A stretch of 64,000 bases of DNA from Octopus vulgaris (lineage: Eukaryota). The position numbers and the translations under genes were made by a program. Shown here piece after piece: positions 8,621 through 53,542 of this stretch. How positions within the stretch are numbered: the first letter of the stretch is position 1; each line of letters begins with the position of its first letter. The notes beneath the pieces were generated by a model that saw only the letters and a list, made by a program, of their open reading frames with translations, was not told where the DNA came from and did not search any database. The stretch is taken from the NCBI GenBank assembly GCA_951406725.2, contig OX597818.1, forward strand, positions 144,894,001 to 144,958,000, in the 5' to 3' direction.

Positions 8621-9262
8621 TAGTTAGTTAGTTAATTTTTTGGCTCAAAAAGCAAAAAAGCAAGGCCATGTAGGGGGACATGGAGTTATGTACAGGGTGG
8701 TGTTCATGTAAAGAGTTCAGGCCACTTGAGGTCAAGGGAGACTTTGAACCGAGTGGTTGTCGGCATCTTCACCATCTCGTCCGGCAGCTTATTCCACGGA
8801 TCCGCAACCCGGACGGAGAAAGCCCCTCTCCTTCGATTGAGATGAAATCGTCGCAGATAGAGCTTTTCGGAATGACCCCGCAGCCGATGCTCTGGAGCAG
8901 GAGTGAAGAACAGCTCCTTCGAGAGGTTACACTTTCTGCTTATGATATTGTGAGCAAGAATGAGATCACCACGGCGTCGTCGTTTTTCTAGAGAATAAAG
9001 GTCGAGCGTCTTCAGCCTTTCTTCATAAGACAAATTCCTGAGACCAAGAACCATGCGGGTAGCCAGCTTCTGAACTCTTTCGAGATGCGGTATGTCTTTG
9101 AGGAGATAAGGAGAAGAGGCTTGAATCCCGTACTCCAATATGGGTCTCACCAGCGTGACATAGAGCGGTAGAAATATGGCTGCTGTGAGCATTCCGAATG
9201 ACCGTCGAATCAAGAACAGAACTCCGCGTGCTTTGTTGGCAGCATGGATGCACTGGGCCGAA
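8621..9262 (-). mobile_element. CR1-group LINE, 5'-truncated copy 1 (ORF2 C-terminus, 3' UTR, (TAAC)n tail)
   Basis: ORF 8704-9285 contains LYVTLVRPILEYG and LRGHSEKL...FSVRVADPWNKLP, typical of the CR1/L2 ORF2 C-terminus. It is near-identical to the copies at 26715 and 38058. The tail TAGTTAGTTAGTTAA starts at 8621. Confidence 0.92.
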
Positions 9263-9941
9263 TTATAATTAATTGGTAACCACACTGGAGGAAATGCTTA
9301 GCAATATTTTGTCTGCTGCTATGTTCTGAGTTCATATTCTGACAATGTTGATCATGCTTTTCATCCTTTCTGGGTTAATAAATTAAGTACCAGTTGAACA
9401 CTGGGGTCGATATAATCGACACATCCCTCCCCCAAAATGGCTGCTCTTGCGGGGAAATTTGAAACCATTATTATTGTTGTTGTTGTTGTCGTTATATAAA
9501 TAAAACTTCAAAGAAATAACTTTTGAAACATTTTACTGGAATTAATAGGAGGACATTCAAGCAATCAGTCAGATAAACAAACATTACCAGAATAGTGGTG
9601 TGTAAATTTTAGGTAGTTAAGTGGTACTTGAAATTTAGGTGGTTGAGTGGTACTCAAGATTAGGTAGTTGGATATGGAGAGGAACTGAAGTGGATAATGA
9701 TTATGCTGCAAAACTATCTAGCAGCTACTAAAGAGGATAGCCTACAATTAAGTGAAAGAAGATTTTGTACAATGGCACTAGAATTTCTGCTAAGAATCAT
9801 GTAAGATTGCTTATACACTATGTGCAACAGGAGAGAATAAAAGGTTAATAATGGTGGTTTCTGACTTAGGCATAAGACAACAAATTTGGGGGAAGAGACC
9901 AGTAGATTACATCAACCACTAGTAGGTGATTTGTACTTTAA

Positions 9942-26485: not shown

Positions 26486-26690
26486 TGTGTGTCTGTGTTT
26501 ATCCTCCCACCATCACTGACAACCGATGTTGGTGTATTTACATCACCATAACTTAACAGTTTGGCAAAAGCAACCAATAAAATAAGTACTAGGCTTACAA
26601 AGAATAAGTTCTTGGGTCGATTTGTTCAACAAAAGGCAGTGCTCTAGCATGGCCACAGTCAAATGACTGAAACAAATAAAAGAATATATA
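26280..26690 (+). mobile_element. tRNA-derived SINE, family B, complete with internal (TA)n
   Basis: Head GGTGTGGCTGTGCGGTAAG...GGGTTCAGTCCCACTG, internal (TA)n, tail CAGTCAAATGACTGAAACAAATAAAAG. Confidence 0.85.
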
Positions 26691-26714
26691 TACAAACACA
26701 AAATTATATATATA

Positions 26715-27401
26715 TAAAGGACCTGGGTATCTTGGTGGATTCCTCCTTTTCGCCTTCAGCCCAGTGCGTCCATGCTGCCAACAAAGCACGCGGAATTCTG
26801 TTCTTGATTCGACGGTCATTCGGAATGCTCACAGCAGCCATATTCCTACCACTCTATGTCACGCTGGTGAGACCCATATTGGAGTATGGGATTCAAGCCT
26901 CTTCTCCTTATCTCCTCAAAGACATACAGCATCTCGAAAGAGTCCAGAAGCTGGCTACCCGCATGGTTCATGGTCTCCAAAATTTGTCCTACGAAGAAAG
27001 GCTGAGGACGCTCGACTTTTATTCTCTTGAAAAACGCAGCCGCCGTGGTGATCTCATTCTCGCCCACAACATCATAAGCGGAAAGTGTAACGTCTCGAAA
27101 GAGCTGTTCTTCACTCCTGCTCCAGAGCGTCGGCTGCGGGGTCATTCCGAAAAGTTCTACCTGCGACAATTTCATCTCATTCGAAGGAGAGGAGCTTTCT
27201 CCGTCCGGGTTGCGGATCCGTGGAACAAGCTGCCAGACGAGATGGTGAAGATGCCGACGACCGCTTTGTTCAAAGCCTCCCTGGACCTCAAGTGGCCTGA
27301 ACTCTTTACATGAACACCACCCTGTACTTAACTCCATGTCCCCCTACATGGCCTTGCTATTTGCTTTTGAGCCAAATTAACTAACTAACTAACTAACTAA
27401 C
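26715..27401 (+). mobile_element. CR1-group LINE, 5'-truncated copy 2
   Basis: KDLGILVDSS...LDLKWPELFT* (stop at 27313), 3' UTR and (TAAC)n tail, flanked by (TA)n on both sides. Confidence 0.93.
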
Positions 27402-32116: not shown

Positions 32117-32159
<43 letters not shown>

Positions 32160-32374
32160 CATTATTAAATCTCTGAACGAGATGTAAACAGTAACGGCTC
32201 GACAATGTAAAGTATAATAGCCATCTCAATATGGCTAACAACAAAGGGGGGGGGTGTTACTGTAGATTTTTAGCCCCAGGAGATCATCGTCTCCAGCTGG
32301 CTTTAGGCACACTATCTGTGCCCTTATGGTATTTGCAAAGGGAGGCCATCCCTTTCTCGTAAGCCTAAGTGATA

Positions 32375-32419
32375 TGCACGGACTGCAGTTTCGAGGTTGT
32401 TGCCTCTTGTCAACGGGCG
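32375..32419 (-). ncRNA. Minimal type I hammerhead ribozyme, U3-A8 core variant (left arm)
   Basis: The minus strand reads CGCCCG-UUGACAA-GAGG(CAACAA)CCUC-GAAA-CUGCAG-UC-CGUGCA. Confidence 0.72.
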
Positions 32420-32451
32420 GTAATCACTGGATTACGATGAAAGGTGATTAC

Positions 32452-32496
32452 CGCCCGTTGACAAGAGGCAACAACCTCGAAACTGCAGTCCGTGCG
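32452..32496 (+). ncRNA. Minimal type I hammerhead ribozyme, U3-A8 core variant (right arm)
   Basis: CGCCCG-UUGACAA(32458-64)-GAGG(CAACAA)CCUC-GAAA(32479-82)-CUGCAG-UC-CGUGCG. The triplet is GUC, helix III is the palindrome ACUGCAGU, and stem I pairs at 5 of 6 positions. Confidence 0.75.
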
Positions 32497-32658
32497 TATC
32501 ACTTAGGCTTACGAGAAAGGGATGGCCTCCCTTTGCAAATACCATAAGGGCGCAGATAGTGTGCCTAAAGCCAGCTGGAGACGATGATCTCCTGGGGCTA
32601 AAAGCTACAGTAACACCCCACCTTTGTGGTTAGCCATATTGAGATGGCTATTATACTT

Positions 32659-32694
<36 letters not shown>

Positions 32695-33101: not shown

Positions 33102-33470
33102 CTGGGTTCTCATTCCTAAGGTATTTTTATGACGTTGTTGTAATTATTATTATTATTATTATTCAGGTCACTGCCTGGAATTGAACTCGGAATCTGGGGG
33201 TTAGTAGCCTGTGCTCTAAACCATATGATGTAGTGGTTAAGAGCACGGGCTACTAACCCCAATATTTCGAGTTCGATTCCAGGCAGTGACCTGAATAATA
33301 ATAATAATAATAATAATACCAATACCAACAACAACATCGGAAAAATACCTTAGGAATGAGAACCCTGGTTCAAAATTCCTCATGGACACCTGATGAAGGC
33401 TGGAGAGTACATCAGCCGAAACTTAACAACAGACAAGATGAGGCCAAATGTAAATAATGTAAACAATCCT
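33102..33470 (+). mobile_element. tRNA-headed SINE-like element with hammerhead tail and an inverted 5' duplication
   Basis: tRNA-like head at 33230-33291 (TAGTGGTTAAG, anticodon-like loop CTACTAA, B box GTTCGATTCC), (AAT)n linker, then CTGATGA-AGGCTG..CAGCC-GAAAC at 33390-33422. 33104-33223 is the reverse complement of 33234-33365. Confidence 0.85.
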
Positions 33471-37024: not shown

Positions 37025-37965
37025 GTAAGTGATGTAGTAGGAGGAGGGGAGAAGGGGAGTAGCAACATCATTGACAGTCGAAACAACGGAAACCTCTACG
37101 AGGTCTCTCGATATACTAGAAATAGCAGCCAAATTCTTTCAAAACACACCCTAATATTCGCAGAACATTAGGAAAAGGACATGATAGATAATTTGGTACT
37201 GGATCCCATGCACATTGGGAATAGACTGATGGTCAGGGCTATAATGTTTTTGACCGCAGGTCTACTCAATCACGGCTGACTTGGGGTTAAACAACTGCAA
37301 CGGAATGTCTACGTTGTCGCTTGAACAGGTGGAAATAGCAGCTATACTTCTCTCAAATCGCACCTACGAACAATACAATCCCAGATACACCCAGAATGGC
37401 GTGATGGTGATGAATGCTTTTTTTTTAATCATATCTTGTTTTGCTCAGTCAGGACCAGCCTGGGACAGACACACCGCCACCAACACCAACAAACAATAAC
37501 AGCAGCAGCAGTATATAAGGTATCTGTTACAAGAACAGCAATAACAATAGCGACGGTAACCACTTCAACAACTGTAGGAATAACTGCGGAAAATGTTTAC
37601 CATTAGACTCATCTCGTTCTAAATGGGTGGTTTTACCTAATGAAAAAAATGATCTCCGATAGTTGTAATTAGATTCGTTCAAAGTACATAAAAAAACATA
37701 GCAAAAATAAACACATTTCACCTTCAAAGTGAGACGAGTAATAACAACTACAAAAACAATGTCAAAACGGGACGAGCGACAGTGTTTCTAATCAGAATAA
37801 CATTTAGAAGAACTACGGTAAACAGCAGCAAAAGAAGCAGCAGTTGGCGTTTCTATGGCAACTTGTCAACAGAATCGCTTGTAGCGGCCAGTCAGGCGTC
37901 AGAGAAACGAAAATTTTCTTTCCTAACACTCACCAAAAAAGAAAAAAAATTCGCTTCAGCACACG

Positions 37966-38044
<79 letters not shown>

Positions 38045-38057
38045 TAACATATACATA

Positions 38058-39271
38058 CTGGTAATGGAAGAATTGGTGACGCGCATCCTCGATGATAGTG
38101 ATGCTGTTGACATCGTTTTATTGGACTTTGCCAAAGCTTTTGACTCGGTTAACCACCGCCTATTACTTGTCAAGCTTCAAGCATATAGTTTCCATCCGGA
38201 TATTGTACGATGGGTTGGTGCCTTCCTCTCAGATCGCTCCTTCCAAGTCCAAGTTAATGGTTCGCGGTCCGACGTCTCCAGTGCGAGCAGTGGCGTGCCT
38301 CAAGGTTCAGTGCTTGGGCCCTTATTGTTTTTAGTCTTCATAAATGACTTGCCCGACGACCTCACGCAACATACCCTTCTATTTGCCGACGATGTCAAAC
38401 TGGTCGTTCCTCGCGGTGATATAGAGGATCTTCGTCGATGCCTCCACCAAATTTGGAGGTGGTCTAACGAATGGGACCTGTGTCTGAACGTGTCAAAGTG
38501 CTGTCATCTGCCTGTTGGCTCTCCTCCTGCAACTCAACTTGATTTCGAGCCGGGTCGTCTGCTGCTGGAGAGGACCGATCAGGTAAAGGACCTGGGTATC
38601 TTGGTCGATTCCTCCTTTTCGCCTTCGGCCCAGTGCGTCCATGCTGCCAACAAAGCACGCGGAATTCTGTTCTTGATTCGACGGTCATTCGGAATGCTCA
38701 CAGCAGCCATATTCCTACCACTCTATTGCACGCTGGTGAGACCCATATTGGAGTACGGGATTCAAGCCTCTTCTCCTTATCTCCTCAAAGACATACAGCA
38801 TCTCGAAAGAGTCCAGAAGCTGGCTACCCGCATGGTTCATGGTCCCAAAAATTTGTCTTATGAAGAAAGGCTGAGGACGCTCGACCTTTATTCTCTAGAA
38901 AACGCCGCCGCCGTGGTGATCTCATTCTCGCTCACAACATCATAAGCGGAAAGTGTAACCTCTCGAAAGAGCTGTTCTTCACTCCTGCTCCAGAGCGTCG
39001 GCTGCGGGGTCATTCCGAAAAGCTCTACCTGCGACGATTTCATCTCAATCGAAGGAGAGGAGCTTTCTCCGTCCGGGTTGCGGTTCCGTGGAACAAGCTG
39101 CCAGACGAGATGGTGAAGATGCCGACGACCGCTTTGTTCAAAGTCTCCCTGGACCTCAAGTGGCCTGAACTCTTTACATGAACACCACCCTGTACTTAAC
39201 TCCATGTCCCTCTACATGGCCTTGCTATTTGCTTTTGAGCCAAAAATTAACTAACTAACTAACTAACTAAC
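38058..39271 (+). mobile_element. CR1-group LINE, 5'-truncated copy 3 (RT core to C-terminus, one frameshift at ~38900)
   Basis: RT motifs LLDFAKAFDSVNH, GVPQGSVLGPLLF, LFADDVKL and KDLGI. A 1-nt deletion relative to copy 2 lies at LEK/RRR, the stop is at 39179-39181, and there is a (TAAC)n tail. Confidence 0.95.
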
Positions 39272-39355
39272 ATATGAACCAAAATAGAAAGCGTTACCAA
39301 TATTAATGATATTATTTACAATTGACAGTTATTTGTCCTCATCTTGTTTGTTGTT

Positions 39356-39400
39356 AACACAACGTTTCGGCTGATATACCTCCAGCCTTCATCAGGTGTC
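39356..39400 (-). ncRNA. Minimal type I hammerhead ribozyme (left arm)
   Basis: The minus strand reads GACAC-CUGAUGA-A-GGCUG(GAGGUAUAU)CAGCC-GAAA-CG-UU-GUGUU. Confidence 0.8.
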
Positions 39401-39466
39401 TTGGGAATTTTCGAACCTGGGTTCTCATTCCTAAGGTATGAGAACCTAGGTTCGAAATTTTCCCAA

Positions 39467-39512
39467 GACACCTGATGAAGGCTGGAGAGTATATCAGCCG
39501 AAACGTTGTGTT
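39467..39512 (+). ncRNA. Minimal type I hammerhead ribozyme (right arm)
   Basis: GACAC-CUGAUGA(39472-78)-A-GGCUG(GAGAGUAUAU)CAGCC-GAAA(39500-03)-CG-UU-GUGUU. The core is canonical, stem I is GACAC/GUGUU, helix III is the palindrome ACGU, and cleavage is predicted after 39507. Confidence 0.82.
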
Positions 39513-40418
39513 AACAACAAACAAGATGAAGACAAATATAGGTCAATTGTAAATATGTAAATAATGTACATAATTCCTCATCTCTTAAAAATAGAACTGT
39601 AGTATTAATGACATCAAATGTTGAAAGAATGGCCAGTGTGAAAGGACCAATTCTGAGCATAAAGAAATGAAAGAAGGGCTCTTGTCCAGTTGATCAGGCA
39701 CCCGTGGCTTTTGTGGGCTTTTCCACGAGGACCTTTAAAGTACCTCCCCTATTAGGACTTTTACCTTGTTCAATTTTATTTATTTATTTATTGTTTACAC
39801 GATGAAAACCCTTTGTCTCGTCTTGTGTTGTCTTTACGTTGTTTGCATATCCTTTAATGTTGTTTTATGTAAGCCCTTGTGGCTAATAAAATAATGAATT
39901 AGTAATGACATCATTTAAAACGGTGAGCTGACAGAATCGTTAGCATGCCGAGCAAAATGCTTAGCAGCAACTCGTCCGTTTTTACGTTCTGAGTTCAAAT
40001 TCCACCGAGGTCGACTTTGCCTTTCATCCTTTCGGGGTCAATAAATTAAGGACCAGTGAATCACTGGAATCGACTAGTCTCCTCCTCACAAATTCCAGGC
40101 CTTGTGCCTTTAGTAGAAAGGATTATTTATGACATCATTTAAGCCGGCGAGCTGTTAGAATCGTTATCTTGCCGGGCAAAGATGCTTGGCGGTATTTCGA
40201 CCGTCTTTACGTTCTGAGTTCAAATTCCGCCGAGGTCGACTTTGCTTTTCATCCTTTAGAGATCGATAAAATAAGTACCAGTTGAGTACTGAGATCGATG
40301 TAATCGACTATCTCCCTCCACCAAATTTCAGGCCTTGTGTTTATAGTAATCCTATAGGATTATTAATGACATCAAAAATGTGGCGAGCTGGCATTATCGT
40401 AATCACACCTGACAAAAT

Positions 40419-50906: not shown

Positions 50907-53542
50907 CTCTTTCGTGCTGGGTGGTACAAATTAAGTACCTCTTATTTCTATCAGTTTAATTAGTGGCGATACATAATTCGTAACGAAATTTAAAATTCTA
51001 TTCGCTGCATGGTCGGTAGTTCAGAAAATGTACCACTTCACCTCTCAGCCAATCAGAAGCTACTCTTACATCTGGCAACAATTTCTGCGACACAAACAGA
51101 ATATTTTTTTGAGTTGAAGCCATTTTGTACCAAAGGTCAATCGACGAAAAGTACAAATTTTAGTTATAAATTTGTTTATTGAAGTGAAGGTGAGAAGATT
51201 TAAAAAAATATTTTGCTTATTAAATGTTTTCTGCGTAATTATAGGTAAATTATTAAAATTTGAACGTTTATATTTAAATTGGCGGTACATTTTTAGAACT
51301 ACTGAGCAGCCAAATAAACACGTGTTCGTGCAATGAACAGTTGATTTTGCATTGTAAAATGAATATGTATTTTTTAATACTTTTTACATTATAGACATTT
51401 GTATGAAATTGATGTTTGAAAATTTAACTTAGTTAATACGAAATTAGAAGTAATTGAAAAATGTAATTTGATATACCTGTATTTTCATTTGAAGTACCTA
51501 TCTACATAGCAATGTTGTTACTATTTTTCAAGGTGTGAGTCCTGTACCTAGACAATATATATATATTTTAAAGATTTATAAATTCCTTATAACATTGTGA
51601 AGTGACAACTATTAATATTTGCTGATTTTACCCTTACAAAATGTCTCTCCACCGAGATCCATATCTCAAAAACGGAGATTGAGGAAATTTTGTTTGCAGA
51701 TGTTCCTTCAGATAATGAATCAATTTGTGATGCTGATGACTCAGATGATGCTTTGGCAGAACAAAATAATGTTCAGGAGGAAGAAACAGCAAATATAGAG
51801 TTTGAGGATTTATCAGAAACTGATTCAGATGATGTTCCATTAACCTCATTGCTGGTAATAAAAATCCAAAATTGGCTCAGGTATTGCACAACCAACAACT
51901 GTTTTTACTAAACCACGTCGTCTTGCAAAAGATATCCAGCAGATGCAAGAGCCCATACTTTACGTCAGTTGTTCACTGATGACATAATAGAGCATATTGT
52001 TTCTCATACTAATTTGTATGCTGTTCATTCAGGCAAAAATTTGGTTCCTATTACTGCCAAAGAAATAAAAACTTTTTTGGCAATTCATTCAATGTTGGGA
52101 GTACAGCGTTTGCCCAGTTAGAGATTAATGGAGTACAGATCCAAAGCTAAATGATCCTTTTATAAGCAGACTAATTCCATTAAAAAAATTCGATTGGTTA
52201 TCATCACATGTTCATTTAAATGACAATTTTCTTATGCCAGGAAGGGCCTCTCCTAACTTAGTTAAATTGTACAAAGTCAGACCATATCATGAAGTGATCA
52301 TAATTAATTTTAAAAAATGCTATTGTGCAAATGATATAGTTGCAGTGGGTGGATCAATGGTAAAATTTAAGGGTAGGAATAGTCTAAAGCAATATAACCC
52401 CATCAAAACAATAATAGGGGTTACAAAATCTGGGTACTGGCTGATAAGTCAAAGTATTTTATTGATGGTGAAATTTATACAGGTAAAAACACTGGTAAAG
52501 TTACAAGAGACTTTGAAGGGAATGTAGTTAGAAAACTAACAAGTCAACTACAAAGAGGAAACCATAATGTTTTTTGACAACTATTTTACTAGTTATGACC
52601 TAGTTAAATATTTGAAAGGAGGTCAATTATTTGCATGTGGCCCTGTAAATAAGAAAAGGGTGAACTTTTCTCAATCTTATAAGAATGACAAAGACTTGGA
52701 AAGAGGTGAACATGACTGGTTTATTTCTGACGATGGAATCTCGGCTGTGAAATGGAAAGATAAGAGAGTGGTATATGTTACTTCCAATTTTCCTGATCCT
52801 ACTGAAATATGCCAAGTTTTAAGGCGAGGAAAGGATGGAAGCAAGCTCCAAATAAACTGACCACTTATGATAAAGGATTACAACCTCCTACATAGGAATT
52901 CTGTTGGTAAGTTTGACCAGCTAATGAAAACCTATGAAATAGACCGTAAAAGACACAAATGGTGGCACAGAATATTTTAAAAACTTTCTTGATGCAACAA
53001 TTGTAAACGCTTTCGTACTTTAATAAGAAAGTACAGGACAGCAATATGACACTGAAAAAAATTCAGATTGGAAGTTATTAATGGCTTAGCAGCAGAATCT
53101 ATTGTGCTAAAGAAAAAGACTAAAGGGCCTTCAGTAGAAATTAAAAAGCGAAAGCCTCATGTTTCATAAAAAATTAGAAAGAGAGAGTCGGCTCATCAAC
53201 CAATAAGAGGAACTAGAAGAAGGAGTGCTTTGTGCAGTTCAAAAGCTAGACAGATCAGAACAGAGTGGAAATGTTCTATTTGCGAAGTTCCTCTGTCTTG
53301 GTAAAAAGAAGTAATGTTTCCAAGATTATCACAAATAAAGATGTACCTAGTGTTCGGAGGTACTAATTTTAGACCACCTCCACTAAGTCAAAATTATATA
53401 TATTTTTTGTAAATTCCCACTAGAAATGCCTAATTTAGTTGATAATAAAGTACAAATTTATGCGTGGTCAATATAAAGCCAATGAGTAAATTTTTGCCCT
53501 TCTAGAGTTTTTTTTGGCCTATCTATCTCGCCCCTGAAAGAC
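50907..53542 (+). mobile_element. piggyBac transposon, near full length and decayed
   Basis: TTAA|CTCTTTC left end and a degenerate GAAAGAC|TCAA right end, enclosing the transposase pseudogene. Confidence 0.75.
51641..53340 (+). pseudogene. piggyBac (PGBD-like) transposase pseudogene
   Basis: Acidic N-terminus, HTNLYA, KLYKVRP, VAVGGSMVKFKGR (DESM site mutated), FFDNYFTS, KWKDKRVV, KFDQ, KWWHRIF, and a C-terminal Cys-rich domain WKCSICEVPL..CFQDYH. Several frameshifts. Confidence 0.92.

What the first reader, a model, noticed from the sequence alone, without database searches (positions are those of the whole stretch)
39313..39555. Back-to-back intact canonical hammerheads in a 243-bp palindrome
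Seen: both arms carry full CUGAUGA/GAAA cores, a 5-bp stem I, a 5-bp stem II and an ACGU helix III that is too short to close intramolecularly. TATTAATGA at 39301 and 39603 may be a target duplication. The right arm continues ~45 nt beyond the left, the same asymmetry as at 32.2 kb. Inference: activity needs two sense copies in trans, and this is the best-preserved template for testing the family.
Basis: partly seen in the sequence, partly recalled or inferred. Interest (0 to 1): 0.8.

Follow-up and report, generated by a model that had tools for sequence, protein, structure and literature searches.

The report
Penelope stub with tRNA-headed parent element
This mirror-image stretch is a dead, stump-sized insertion of the end repeat of a common protein-coding jumping gene (a Penelope-like element), which is a known pattern; the unusual part is its parent, which starts with a tRNA-derived segment and lacks runs of four T, so it may be transcribed by RNA polymerase III.

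Summary
The palindrome, both hammerhead cores, the 9-bp duplication and the 45-nt overhang are real. It is not a new ribozyme system. It is a head-to-head pair of 5'-truncated end repeats (pLTRs) of a 2.67-kb Penelope/Poseidon-type element with an 838-codon RT/endonuclease frame that begins inside the arm. The family has thousands of copies. All 37 head-to-head insertions examined have one short and one long end, and 18 of 37 have duplications of 9 nt or more. The cores are the known minimal PLE type (extra base after A9), not canonical. The copy is about 5% decayed and not the best-preserved one genome-wide. Dimer cleavage is the published model; the native partner is probably the next tandem pLTR in cis. 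Family-level findings: a tRNA-derived segment heads the pLTR, 36 of 50 arms that reach it stop at its start, and the unit has no TTTT on its sense strand. A recurrent 3-nt deletion spans the predicted cut, a weak hint of cleavage in vivo. No RNA was examined. The scan had already noted this family and its tRNA head on other DNA of this genome.

The parts
39301..39309 (+). Left copy of the 9-bp target-site duplication (TATTAATGA)
   Evidence: family-wide test
39311..39439 (-). Left arm: inverted, 5'-truncated pLTR piece (family arm positions 11-141), short outer end, no tail
   Evidence: 124 matches, 5 mismatches, 2 gaps to the family majority
39356..39400 (-). Minimal type I hammerhead of the left arm; 1-nt deletion in loop II; predicted cut 3' of 39361 on the minus strand
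39427..39439 (.). Head-to-head junction, inside a 13-nt near-palindrome that is native to the family unit
   Evidence: same centre in L003 and L010
39438..39601 (+). Right arm: pLTR piece (arm positions 22-186) starting at the ATG of the parent's reading frame; stop at codon 4 in this copy
   Evidence: 157 matches, 7 mismatches, 1 gap
39467..39512 (+). Minimal type I hammerhead of the right arm: stem I 39467-71/39508-12, core 39472-78, extra A 39479, stem II 39480-84/39495-99, GAAA 39500-03, predicted cut after 39507
   Evidence: cleavage untested
39557..39601 (+). One-sided 'tail' of 45 nt (34 nt in copies whose short end lies at the second register); coding sequence of the parent frame
39603..39611 (+). 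Right copy of the target-site duplication
33102..33467 (.). Second, more decayed head-to-head copy of the same family; keeps the tRNA-derived head in both arms; its hammerhead has lost 6 nt at the cut site

Best explanation
The palindrome is one dead insertion of the end repeat (pLTR) of an endonuclease-bearing Penelope/Poseidon-type retrotransposon, likely laid down when the element's protein nicked both strands of an AT-rich target 9 bp apart, likely started two cDNAs at two neighbouring internal sites of the RNA, and likely joined them head to head at a short self-complementary stretch. Shown: family membership, continuity of the arm with the parent frame on both sides, the short-end/long-end rule, the duplications, the junction inside a native near-palindrome, neutral-like decay. 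Inferred: two priming events (the long arm holds 45 nt that the short arm lacks, so it cannot be a plain fold-back copy of it). Each hammerhead is predicted to cut only as a dimer or with help from the element's protein, on parent RNAs; at this locus one transcript carries one sense core, and a read-through would fold into a long hairpin that is predicted to silence it. The parent's RNA is likely started at the tRNA-derived head by RNA polymerase III (about 50% for short pLTR RNAs, less for the full coding unit).
For: Arm preceded by an RT/endonuclease frame end, head and (AAT)n in most of 30 loci chosen on that frame. Arm runs on in frame into the start of the frame in loci chosen on the frame start. 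Majority unit 2670 nt with one 838-codon frame; RVT_1 over cut-off in two copies; 37% identical over 800 residues to an 836-aa Anolis protein and grouping with it, apart from two PLE frames of another type in this genome (quick tree). 37 of 37 head-to-head insertions have one short and one long end; duplications of 9 nt or more in 18 of 37 against 16 of 1332. Published match: Pen2a_Av has an inverted pLTR, a 31-bp tail, a 9-bp TSD and a pLTR that holds the first codons (PMC3846280, passages); PAc cuts and extends both strands, and its two RT start sites bound the tail (PMC11167929, parts 1-2 of 4); opposite-strand min-HHR pairs 100-700 bp apart are reported (PMC4209133). Core positions differ from the majority at 3.2% against 4.5% for other non-CpG positions, CpG 18% (75 arms not chosen on the hammerhead).
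Against: No empty site was seen: reads and contigs of four runs showed no joint that skips the element (coverage was thin and swamped by other copies). 19 of 37 insertions lack a duplication of 9 nt or more. Whether the two arms come from one RNA or two is unresolved: shared non-majority letters 0.0090 per site against 0.0065 in shuffled pairs, p 0.057; arm differences 0.121 against 0.128, p 0.026 (29 pairs). PMC3846280 explains such junction palindromes by self-priming on an antisense template, not by twin priming. No intact parent copy was found; every sampled frame is broken. No RNA data were examined.
Confidence: 0.85

Rival explanations
1. Same element, but the inversion arises by self-priming (fold-back) on one template followed by extension into the tail, as proposed for rotifer Penelopes, not by two target-primed cDNAs.
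For: Junctions often sit in native palindromes (the 13-mer here; a 12-mer at the head start). Arms of one insertion are slightly more alike than shuffled pairs (p 0.026). PMC3846280 discussion.
Against: The long arm has 34-45 nt absent from the short arm in 37 of 37 cases. Many junctions join unrelated positions of the unit with little homology. The cut-site deletion was in one arm only in 8 of 8 pairs that had it.
Confidence: 0.25
2. The short copies, this one included, derive from a separate SINE-like RNA (tRNA head, AAT run, hammerhead, tail) made by polymerase III and moved in trans by the parent's protein.
For: 36 of 50 arms that reach the head start end there (0.038 per nt against 0.001-0.011 in other bins). 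A 22-mer in the head has 2931 exact copies, a 22-mer about 165 nt upstream 666. Six heads that I read as joined to plain genomic flank start at tRNA positions -2 to +12.
Against: The short unit is not a separate sequence; it is colinear with the parent on both sides. No T4 terminator follows the tail. The strongest local hairpin of the region (-10.6 kcal/mol among 36-nt windows) covers the head start and could stop RT. This copy does not reach the head, so its source RNA cannot be told.
Confidence: 0.3
3. A selected, functional double-ribozyme hairpin: a host-maintained switch that cuts in trans and inhibits itself in cis.
For: Both cores and stems are intact, which holds for only 13 of 70 arms not chosen on the core. 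The read-through hairpin is very stable.
Against: Intactness fits 5% neutral decay among thousands of copies; 5 of 24 head-to-head loci are equally intact. The differences from the family are spread like neutral ones. The structure follows the insertion rule of the whole family.
Confidence: 0.04
4. A MITE or foldback DNA transposon that happens to carry hammerhead-like words.
For: Long inverted arms and a 9-bp duplication.
Against: Ends are asymmetric, centres vary from copy to copy, many copies have one arm only, and the sequence is part of an RT frame.
Confidence: 0.01

Closest known systems
EN+ Penelope/Poseidon elements: Pen2a_Av of Adineta (PMC3846280, passages), PAc of Anolis (PMC11167929, parts 1-2 of 4), overview in PMC8557442 (passages)
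   Same: One RT plus C-terminal endonuclease frame of about 840 codons starting inside the pLTR; hammerhead over the first codons; inverted 5'-truncated copy; one-sided tail; short TSD; AT-rich target.
   Different: The pLTR begins with a 73-nt tRNA-derived segment and an (AAT)n run; the passages read describe TATA/Inr-like or intron-overlapping promoters. The unit has no TTTT on the sense strand.
Minimal hammerheads of metazoan PLEs (Cervera and de la Pena 2014, PMC4209133, parts 1-2 of 4; Lunse et al. only as cited in the review PMC6765202, passages; the paper itself is not held)
   Same: Short stem I, base between 9 and 10.1, G10.1-C11.1 pair, palindromic 15.2/16.2, dimer model, opposite-strand pairs close together.
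   Different: Cut triplet is GUU. Activity of this family is untested.
TRIMp3 elements Cassandra, Helenus, Ajax (Kojima 2024, PMC10886601, passages)
   Same: A small-RNA-derived polymerase III promoter inside a terminal repeat; proposed origin by SINE insertion into the repeat.
   Different: Those are non-coding LTR elements, and the paper expects coding partners to use polymerase II; here the tRNA-derived segment sits in the repeat of the coding element itself. 'Penelope' has 0 occurrences in that text.
Animal non-LTR retrozymes (bioRxiv 10.64898/2026.07.22.740005, part 1 of 5; PMC7229834, search listing only)
   Same: Type I hammerhead, relation to pLTRs.
   Different: Retrozymes are tandem non-coding repeats; this is a truncated piece of a coding element.

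Membership tests
EN+ Penelope-like element (Penelope/Poseidon type) | Single frame with RT and C-terminal GIY-YIG endonuclease | tested here: met
   838-codon majority frame; RVT_1 over cut-off; 37% to Anolis P0088 over residues 34-833, endonuclease region included. Pfam GIY-YIG did not match the one partial endonuclease copy scanned, so that domain rests on the alignment and recalled motifs.
EN+ Penelope-like element (Penelope/Poseidon type) | pLTR in partial tandem, holding the first codons of the frame | tested here: met
EN+ Penelope-like element (Penelope/Poseidon type) | Inverted 5'-truncated copy with a one-sided 30-40-bp tail | tested here: met
   37 of 37; 45 nt in this copy because the short end uses the earlier of two registers
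EN+ Penelope-like element (Penelope/Poseidon type) | Short target-site duplication | tested here: met
   18 of 37 against 16 of 1332; empty site not seen
EN+ Penelope-like element (Penelope/Poseidon type) | RT phylogeny places it in the Penelope/Poseidon clade | tested here: inconclusive
   Quick tree of 15 rows groups it with the Anolis protein and apart from two local PLE frames; no curated reference set; that P0088 is PAc or close to it, and that the two local frames are Neptune-type, is my inference from recall
Minimal type I hammerhead of PLEs | CUGANGA/GAAA core, extra base after A9, G10.1-C11.1, short stem I, palindromic helix III | tested here: met
   against PMC4209133
Minimal type I hammerhead of PLEs | Site-specific self-cleavage as dimer or with protein help | not testable with these tools
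   Dimer fold scores -20.7 kcal/mol against -29.2 for a non-catalytic cofold and -11.2 per monomer; indirect deletion signal
Canonical type I hammerhead | Stem I 6 bp, stem II 4 bp, no insertion after A9 | tested here: not met
tRNA-derived SINE | tRNA-related head with A and B boxes | tested here: met
   In the family, not in this copy: 44 of 73 letters match a tRNA-Arg(TCG) of this genome without gaps; 0 of 500 shuffles reach the score. ARAGORN and Rfam do not call the head a tRNA.
tRNA-derived SINE | Independent non-coding unit distinct from its partner | tested here: not met
   Colinear with the coding element on both sides
tRNA-derived SINE | Transcribed by RNA polymerase III | not testable with these tools
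   Only indirect:
Non-LTR retrozyme | Tandem non-coding monomers each with a hammerhead | tested here: not met
   This copy is a head-to-head pair, and its monomer is the coding unit

The most novel reading that the evidence does not exclude
The parent is a protein-coding Penelope-like retrotransposon whose whole 2.7-kb unit is transcribed by RNA polymerase III from a captured tRNA promoter in its pLTR, is cut in vivo by the hammerhead dimer of two tandem pLTRs, and leaves a record of that cut: RT jumps across the break by 2-nt microhomology and deletes 3 nt in about one copy in ten.
Probability: 0.25. Interest if true: 0.8.

Novelty: new variant of a known kind. Interest (0 to 1): 0.45.

Why it matters
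The palindrome itself is ordinary. The family offers two testable points. First, a coding retroelement read by polymerase III would break the usual split between polymerase II coding elements and polymerase III passengers, and would raise the question of how an uncapped RNA is translated. Second, whether PLE hammerheads cut in vivo is open: PMC11167929 found no reads ending at the cut site, and PMC8557442 calls the function unclear. A genomic scar at the cut site would make it countable from assemblies alone. The strict short/long end rule constrains models of how PLE inversions are made.

Tried and rejected
Rfam on the window: 0 matches; on heads: no tRNA or hammerhead match, only simple-repeat noise. 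The young 781-codon PLE family as partner: shares nothing with the arm (best E 0.085) and has its own U3-A8-type core. Extending the element past the tail with a tail pattern: 30 of 38 hits fetched, flanks unrelated except one duplicated pair. Empty-site search with reads and contigs of four runs: uninformative. Metagenome scan for relatives: one 12-residue match. Search for a second Poseidon-type family as a TTTT control: the 29 of 30 loci that could be scored were all this family, so the controls are PLEs of another type. One-RNA or two-RNA origin of the arms: inconclusive. Linkage of the cut-site deletion to a haplotype: none after allowing for 94 tests (best p 0.003). The careful tree did not finish. 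PMC13343379 has no mention of tRNA, polymerase III or Penelope in its main text. Paper searches for a tRNA-headed PLE listed none by title or abstract start; Repbase, Dfam and subscription papers were not searchable, and no supplements were read, so a prior description cannot be excluded.

Full report
Observation. The inverted repeat at 39313-39555 is real (92% over 245 columns) and folds far better than shuffles. One detail changes the label: an extra A separates A9 from stem II. That, the short stem I and the palindromic helix III are the marks of the minimal hammerheads of metazoan Penelope-like elements (PMC4209133, parts 1-2 of 4 read). That paper also reports pairs on opposite strands 100-700 bp apart.

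Family. The window lies in a 2.8-Gb genome; a protein hit named for Octopus sinensis begins with this arm's reading frame, and earlier notes call the genome an octopus. The right arm drew 2698 first-look candidates, and a 35-nt core stretch has 1598 exact copies. In the first 30 loci the arm is usually preceded by an (AAT)n run and often by a 73-nt head, and many loci carry a second, inverted arm.

Parent element. Locus L073 showed the end of an RT/endonuclease frame running into head, AAT run and arm. Thirty loci chosen on that frame end confirmed the link in most cases. Thirty loci chosen on the frame start showed the arm upstream in most, continuing in frame into the protein's N-terminus. 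The majority unit is 2670 nt with one frame of 838 codons whose ATG corresponds to 39438. RVT_1 passes its cut-off in two copies. The protein is 37% identical to an 836-aa Anolis protein and 57% to an unnamed 847-aa protein, and groups with them apart from two other PLE frames of this genome (quick tree, 15 rows picked from 120 hits plus local frames). So the arm is the pLTR and frame start, as in Pen2a_Av and PAc (PMC3846280 passages; PMC11167929 parts 1-2). All sampled copies are broken.

Insertion signature. From 90 loci chosen on the arm, the tail or the core I dropped 4 duplicates. In the 86 left, 37 head-to-head insertions had both outer ends in the tail region, and all 37 had one short and one long end. 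Duplications of 9 nt or more occurred in 18 of 37 against 16 of 1332 mismatched pairs. A looser first pass over more loci counted 32 such cases among 75 inversions, the rest being internal or truncated. Short ends fall near arm positions 141-144 and 152-153, so the tail is 45 or 34 nt; this copy uses the first. Its centre lies in a 13-nt near-palindrome native to the unit, as in two other loci. PAc cuts and extends both target strands and has two RT start sites that bound the tail. Two cDNAs joined at self-complementary ends would give exactly this layout; that step is inference. Fold-back priming remains a rival, and arm-to-arm comparison did not settle it.

State of this copy. Each arm is 95% identical to the family majority. 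Among 75 arms not chosen on the hammerhead, core positions differ at 3.2%, other non-CpG positions at 4.5% and CpG at 18%, as expected of neutral decay. The one free core position, N7, carries a common T/A variant (16 of 73) linked to a second site; this fits selection on parent RNAs but is also a conservative codon change. Both hammerheads are intact in 5 of 24 distinct head-to-head loci, and 13 of 70 single arms are intact. The copy is a fair test substrate, not a unique one. A single transcript carries one sense core; a read-through forms a hairpin of about 120 bp. The dimer fold is not the predicted minimum, which fits the low in vitro activity and protein dependence in print.

The tRNA head. 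The head aligns without gaps to a tRNA-Arg(TCG) of this genome at 44 of 73 letters, beyond all 500 shuffles (30 tRNA loci, few isotypes, so the source isotype is not fixed). Of 50 arms that reach it, 36 end within 19 nt around its start; ends inside the AAT run cannot be placed. Exact 22-mers drop from 2931 in the head to 666 just upstream. The majority unit has no TTTT on the sense strand, against 2.9-4.8 expected from four kinds of shuffle (p 0.008-0.03); two other PLE frames have 9 in 2346 nt and 8 in 1725 nt, and decayed copies of this family have 0.58 per kb. That four T stop animal polymerase III is established knowledge, recalled. The closest printed analogues are non-coding LTR elements with polymerase III promoters (PMC10886601, passages).

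A possible trace of cleavage. Of 76 5' junctions in arm positions 25-150, none fell in the 7 nt before the predicted cut and 8 in the 5 nt after it (expected 4.2 and 3.0; p about 0.01 each; bins chosen after seeing the data). A 3-nt deletion spanning the cut occurs in 14 of 133 copies, with 5 more placed one base off, against 0.3% at 121 other sites with 2-nt microhomology. It is on both N7 backgrounds and in one arm only in 8 of 8 pairs. An RT jump across the break by GT microhomology would give this deletion. But two sites in the frame reach 9-11% with no ribozyme, so slippage or inheritance is not excluded. It is a hint only.

Earlier notes. The scan reached the PLE reading, the short/long rule and the tRNA head on other DNA of this genome, and tRNA-headed, TTTT-poor LINEs in other genomes. 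They are not independent support. My TTTT test came.

Verdict. The finding is a real but ordinary PLE insertion. The family is a variant worth testing for polymerase III transcription and for cleavage in vivo. Interest 0.45.

Noticed in passing
window 32158-32663: A second palindrome family (arms 94% alike, overhang of about 47 nt on the left) inserted in (TA)n; copies in L224, L071, L065 and others; no CTGANGA core found by my scan; no similarity to this family.
   Followed up: partly
L061-L070, L072: A young PLE family with an intact 781-codon RT/GIY-YIG frame in many copies, an upstream second frame, about 98% identity between copies, and a hammerhead-like motif with the U3-A8 core change.
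   Followed up: partly
P0001: A predicted Octopus sinensis protein isoform of 368 aa starts with 37 residues of this arm's frame, joined to a cysteine-rich, receptor-like body: either exonisation or a gene-prediction artefact.
   Followed up: no
window 37692-39272: 3' part of a LINE-like RT frame with a (TAAC)n tail ends about 30 bp left of the insertion; further copies near 8655-9297 and 26648-27362. Clade not tested.
   Followed up: no
L006, L008, L011, L026, L028: Other sequence, in some cases ending in its own AAT run, lies between the head and the arm, probably later insertions into the family's (AAT)n run.
   Followed up: no
window 52129-52860: Two open stretches that read like pieces of a piggyBac-type transposase, by recall only.
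   Followed up: no
L073, L134, L135: Three near-identical (99%) copies of one insertion with flanks on contig C1, suggesting segmental duplication.
   Followed up: no
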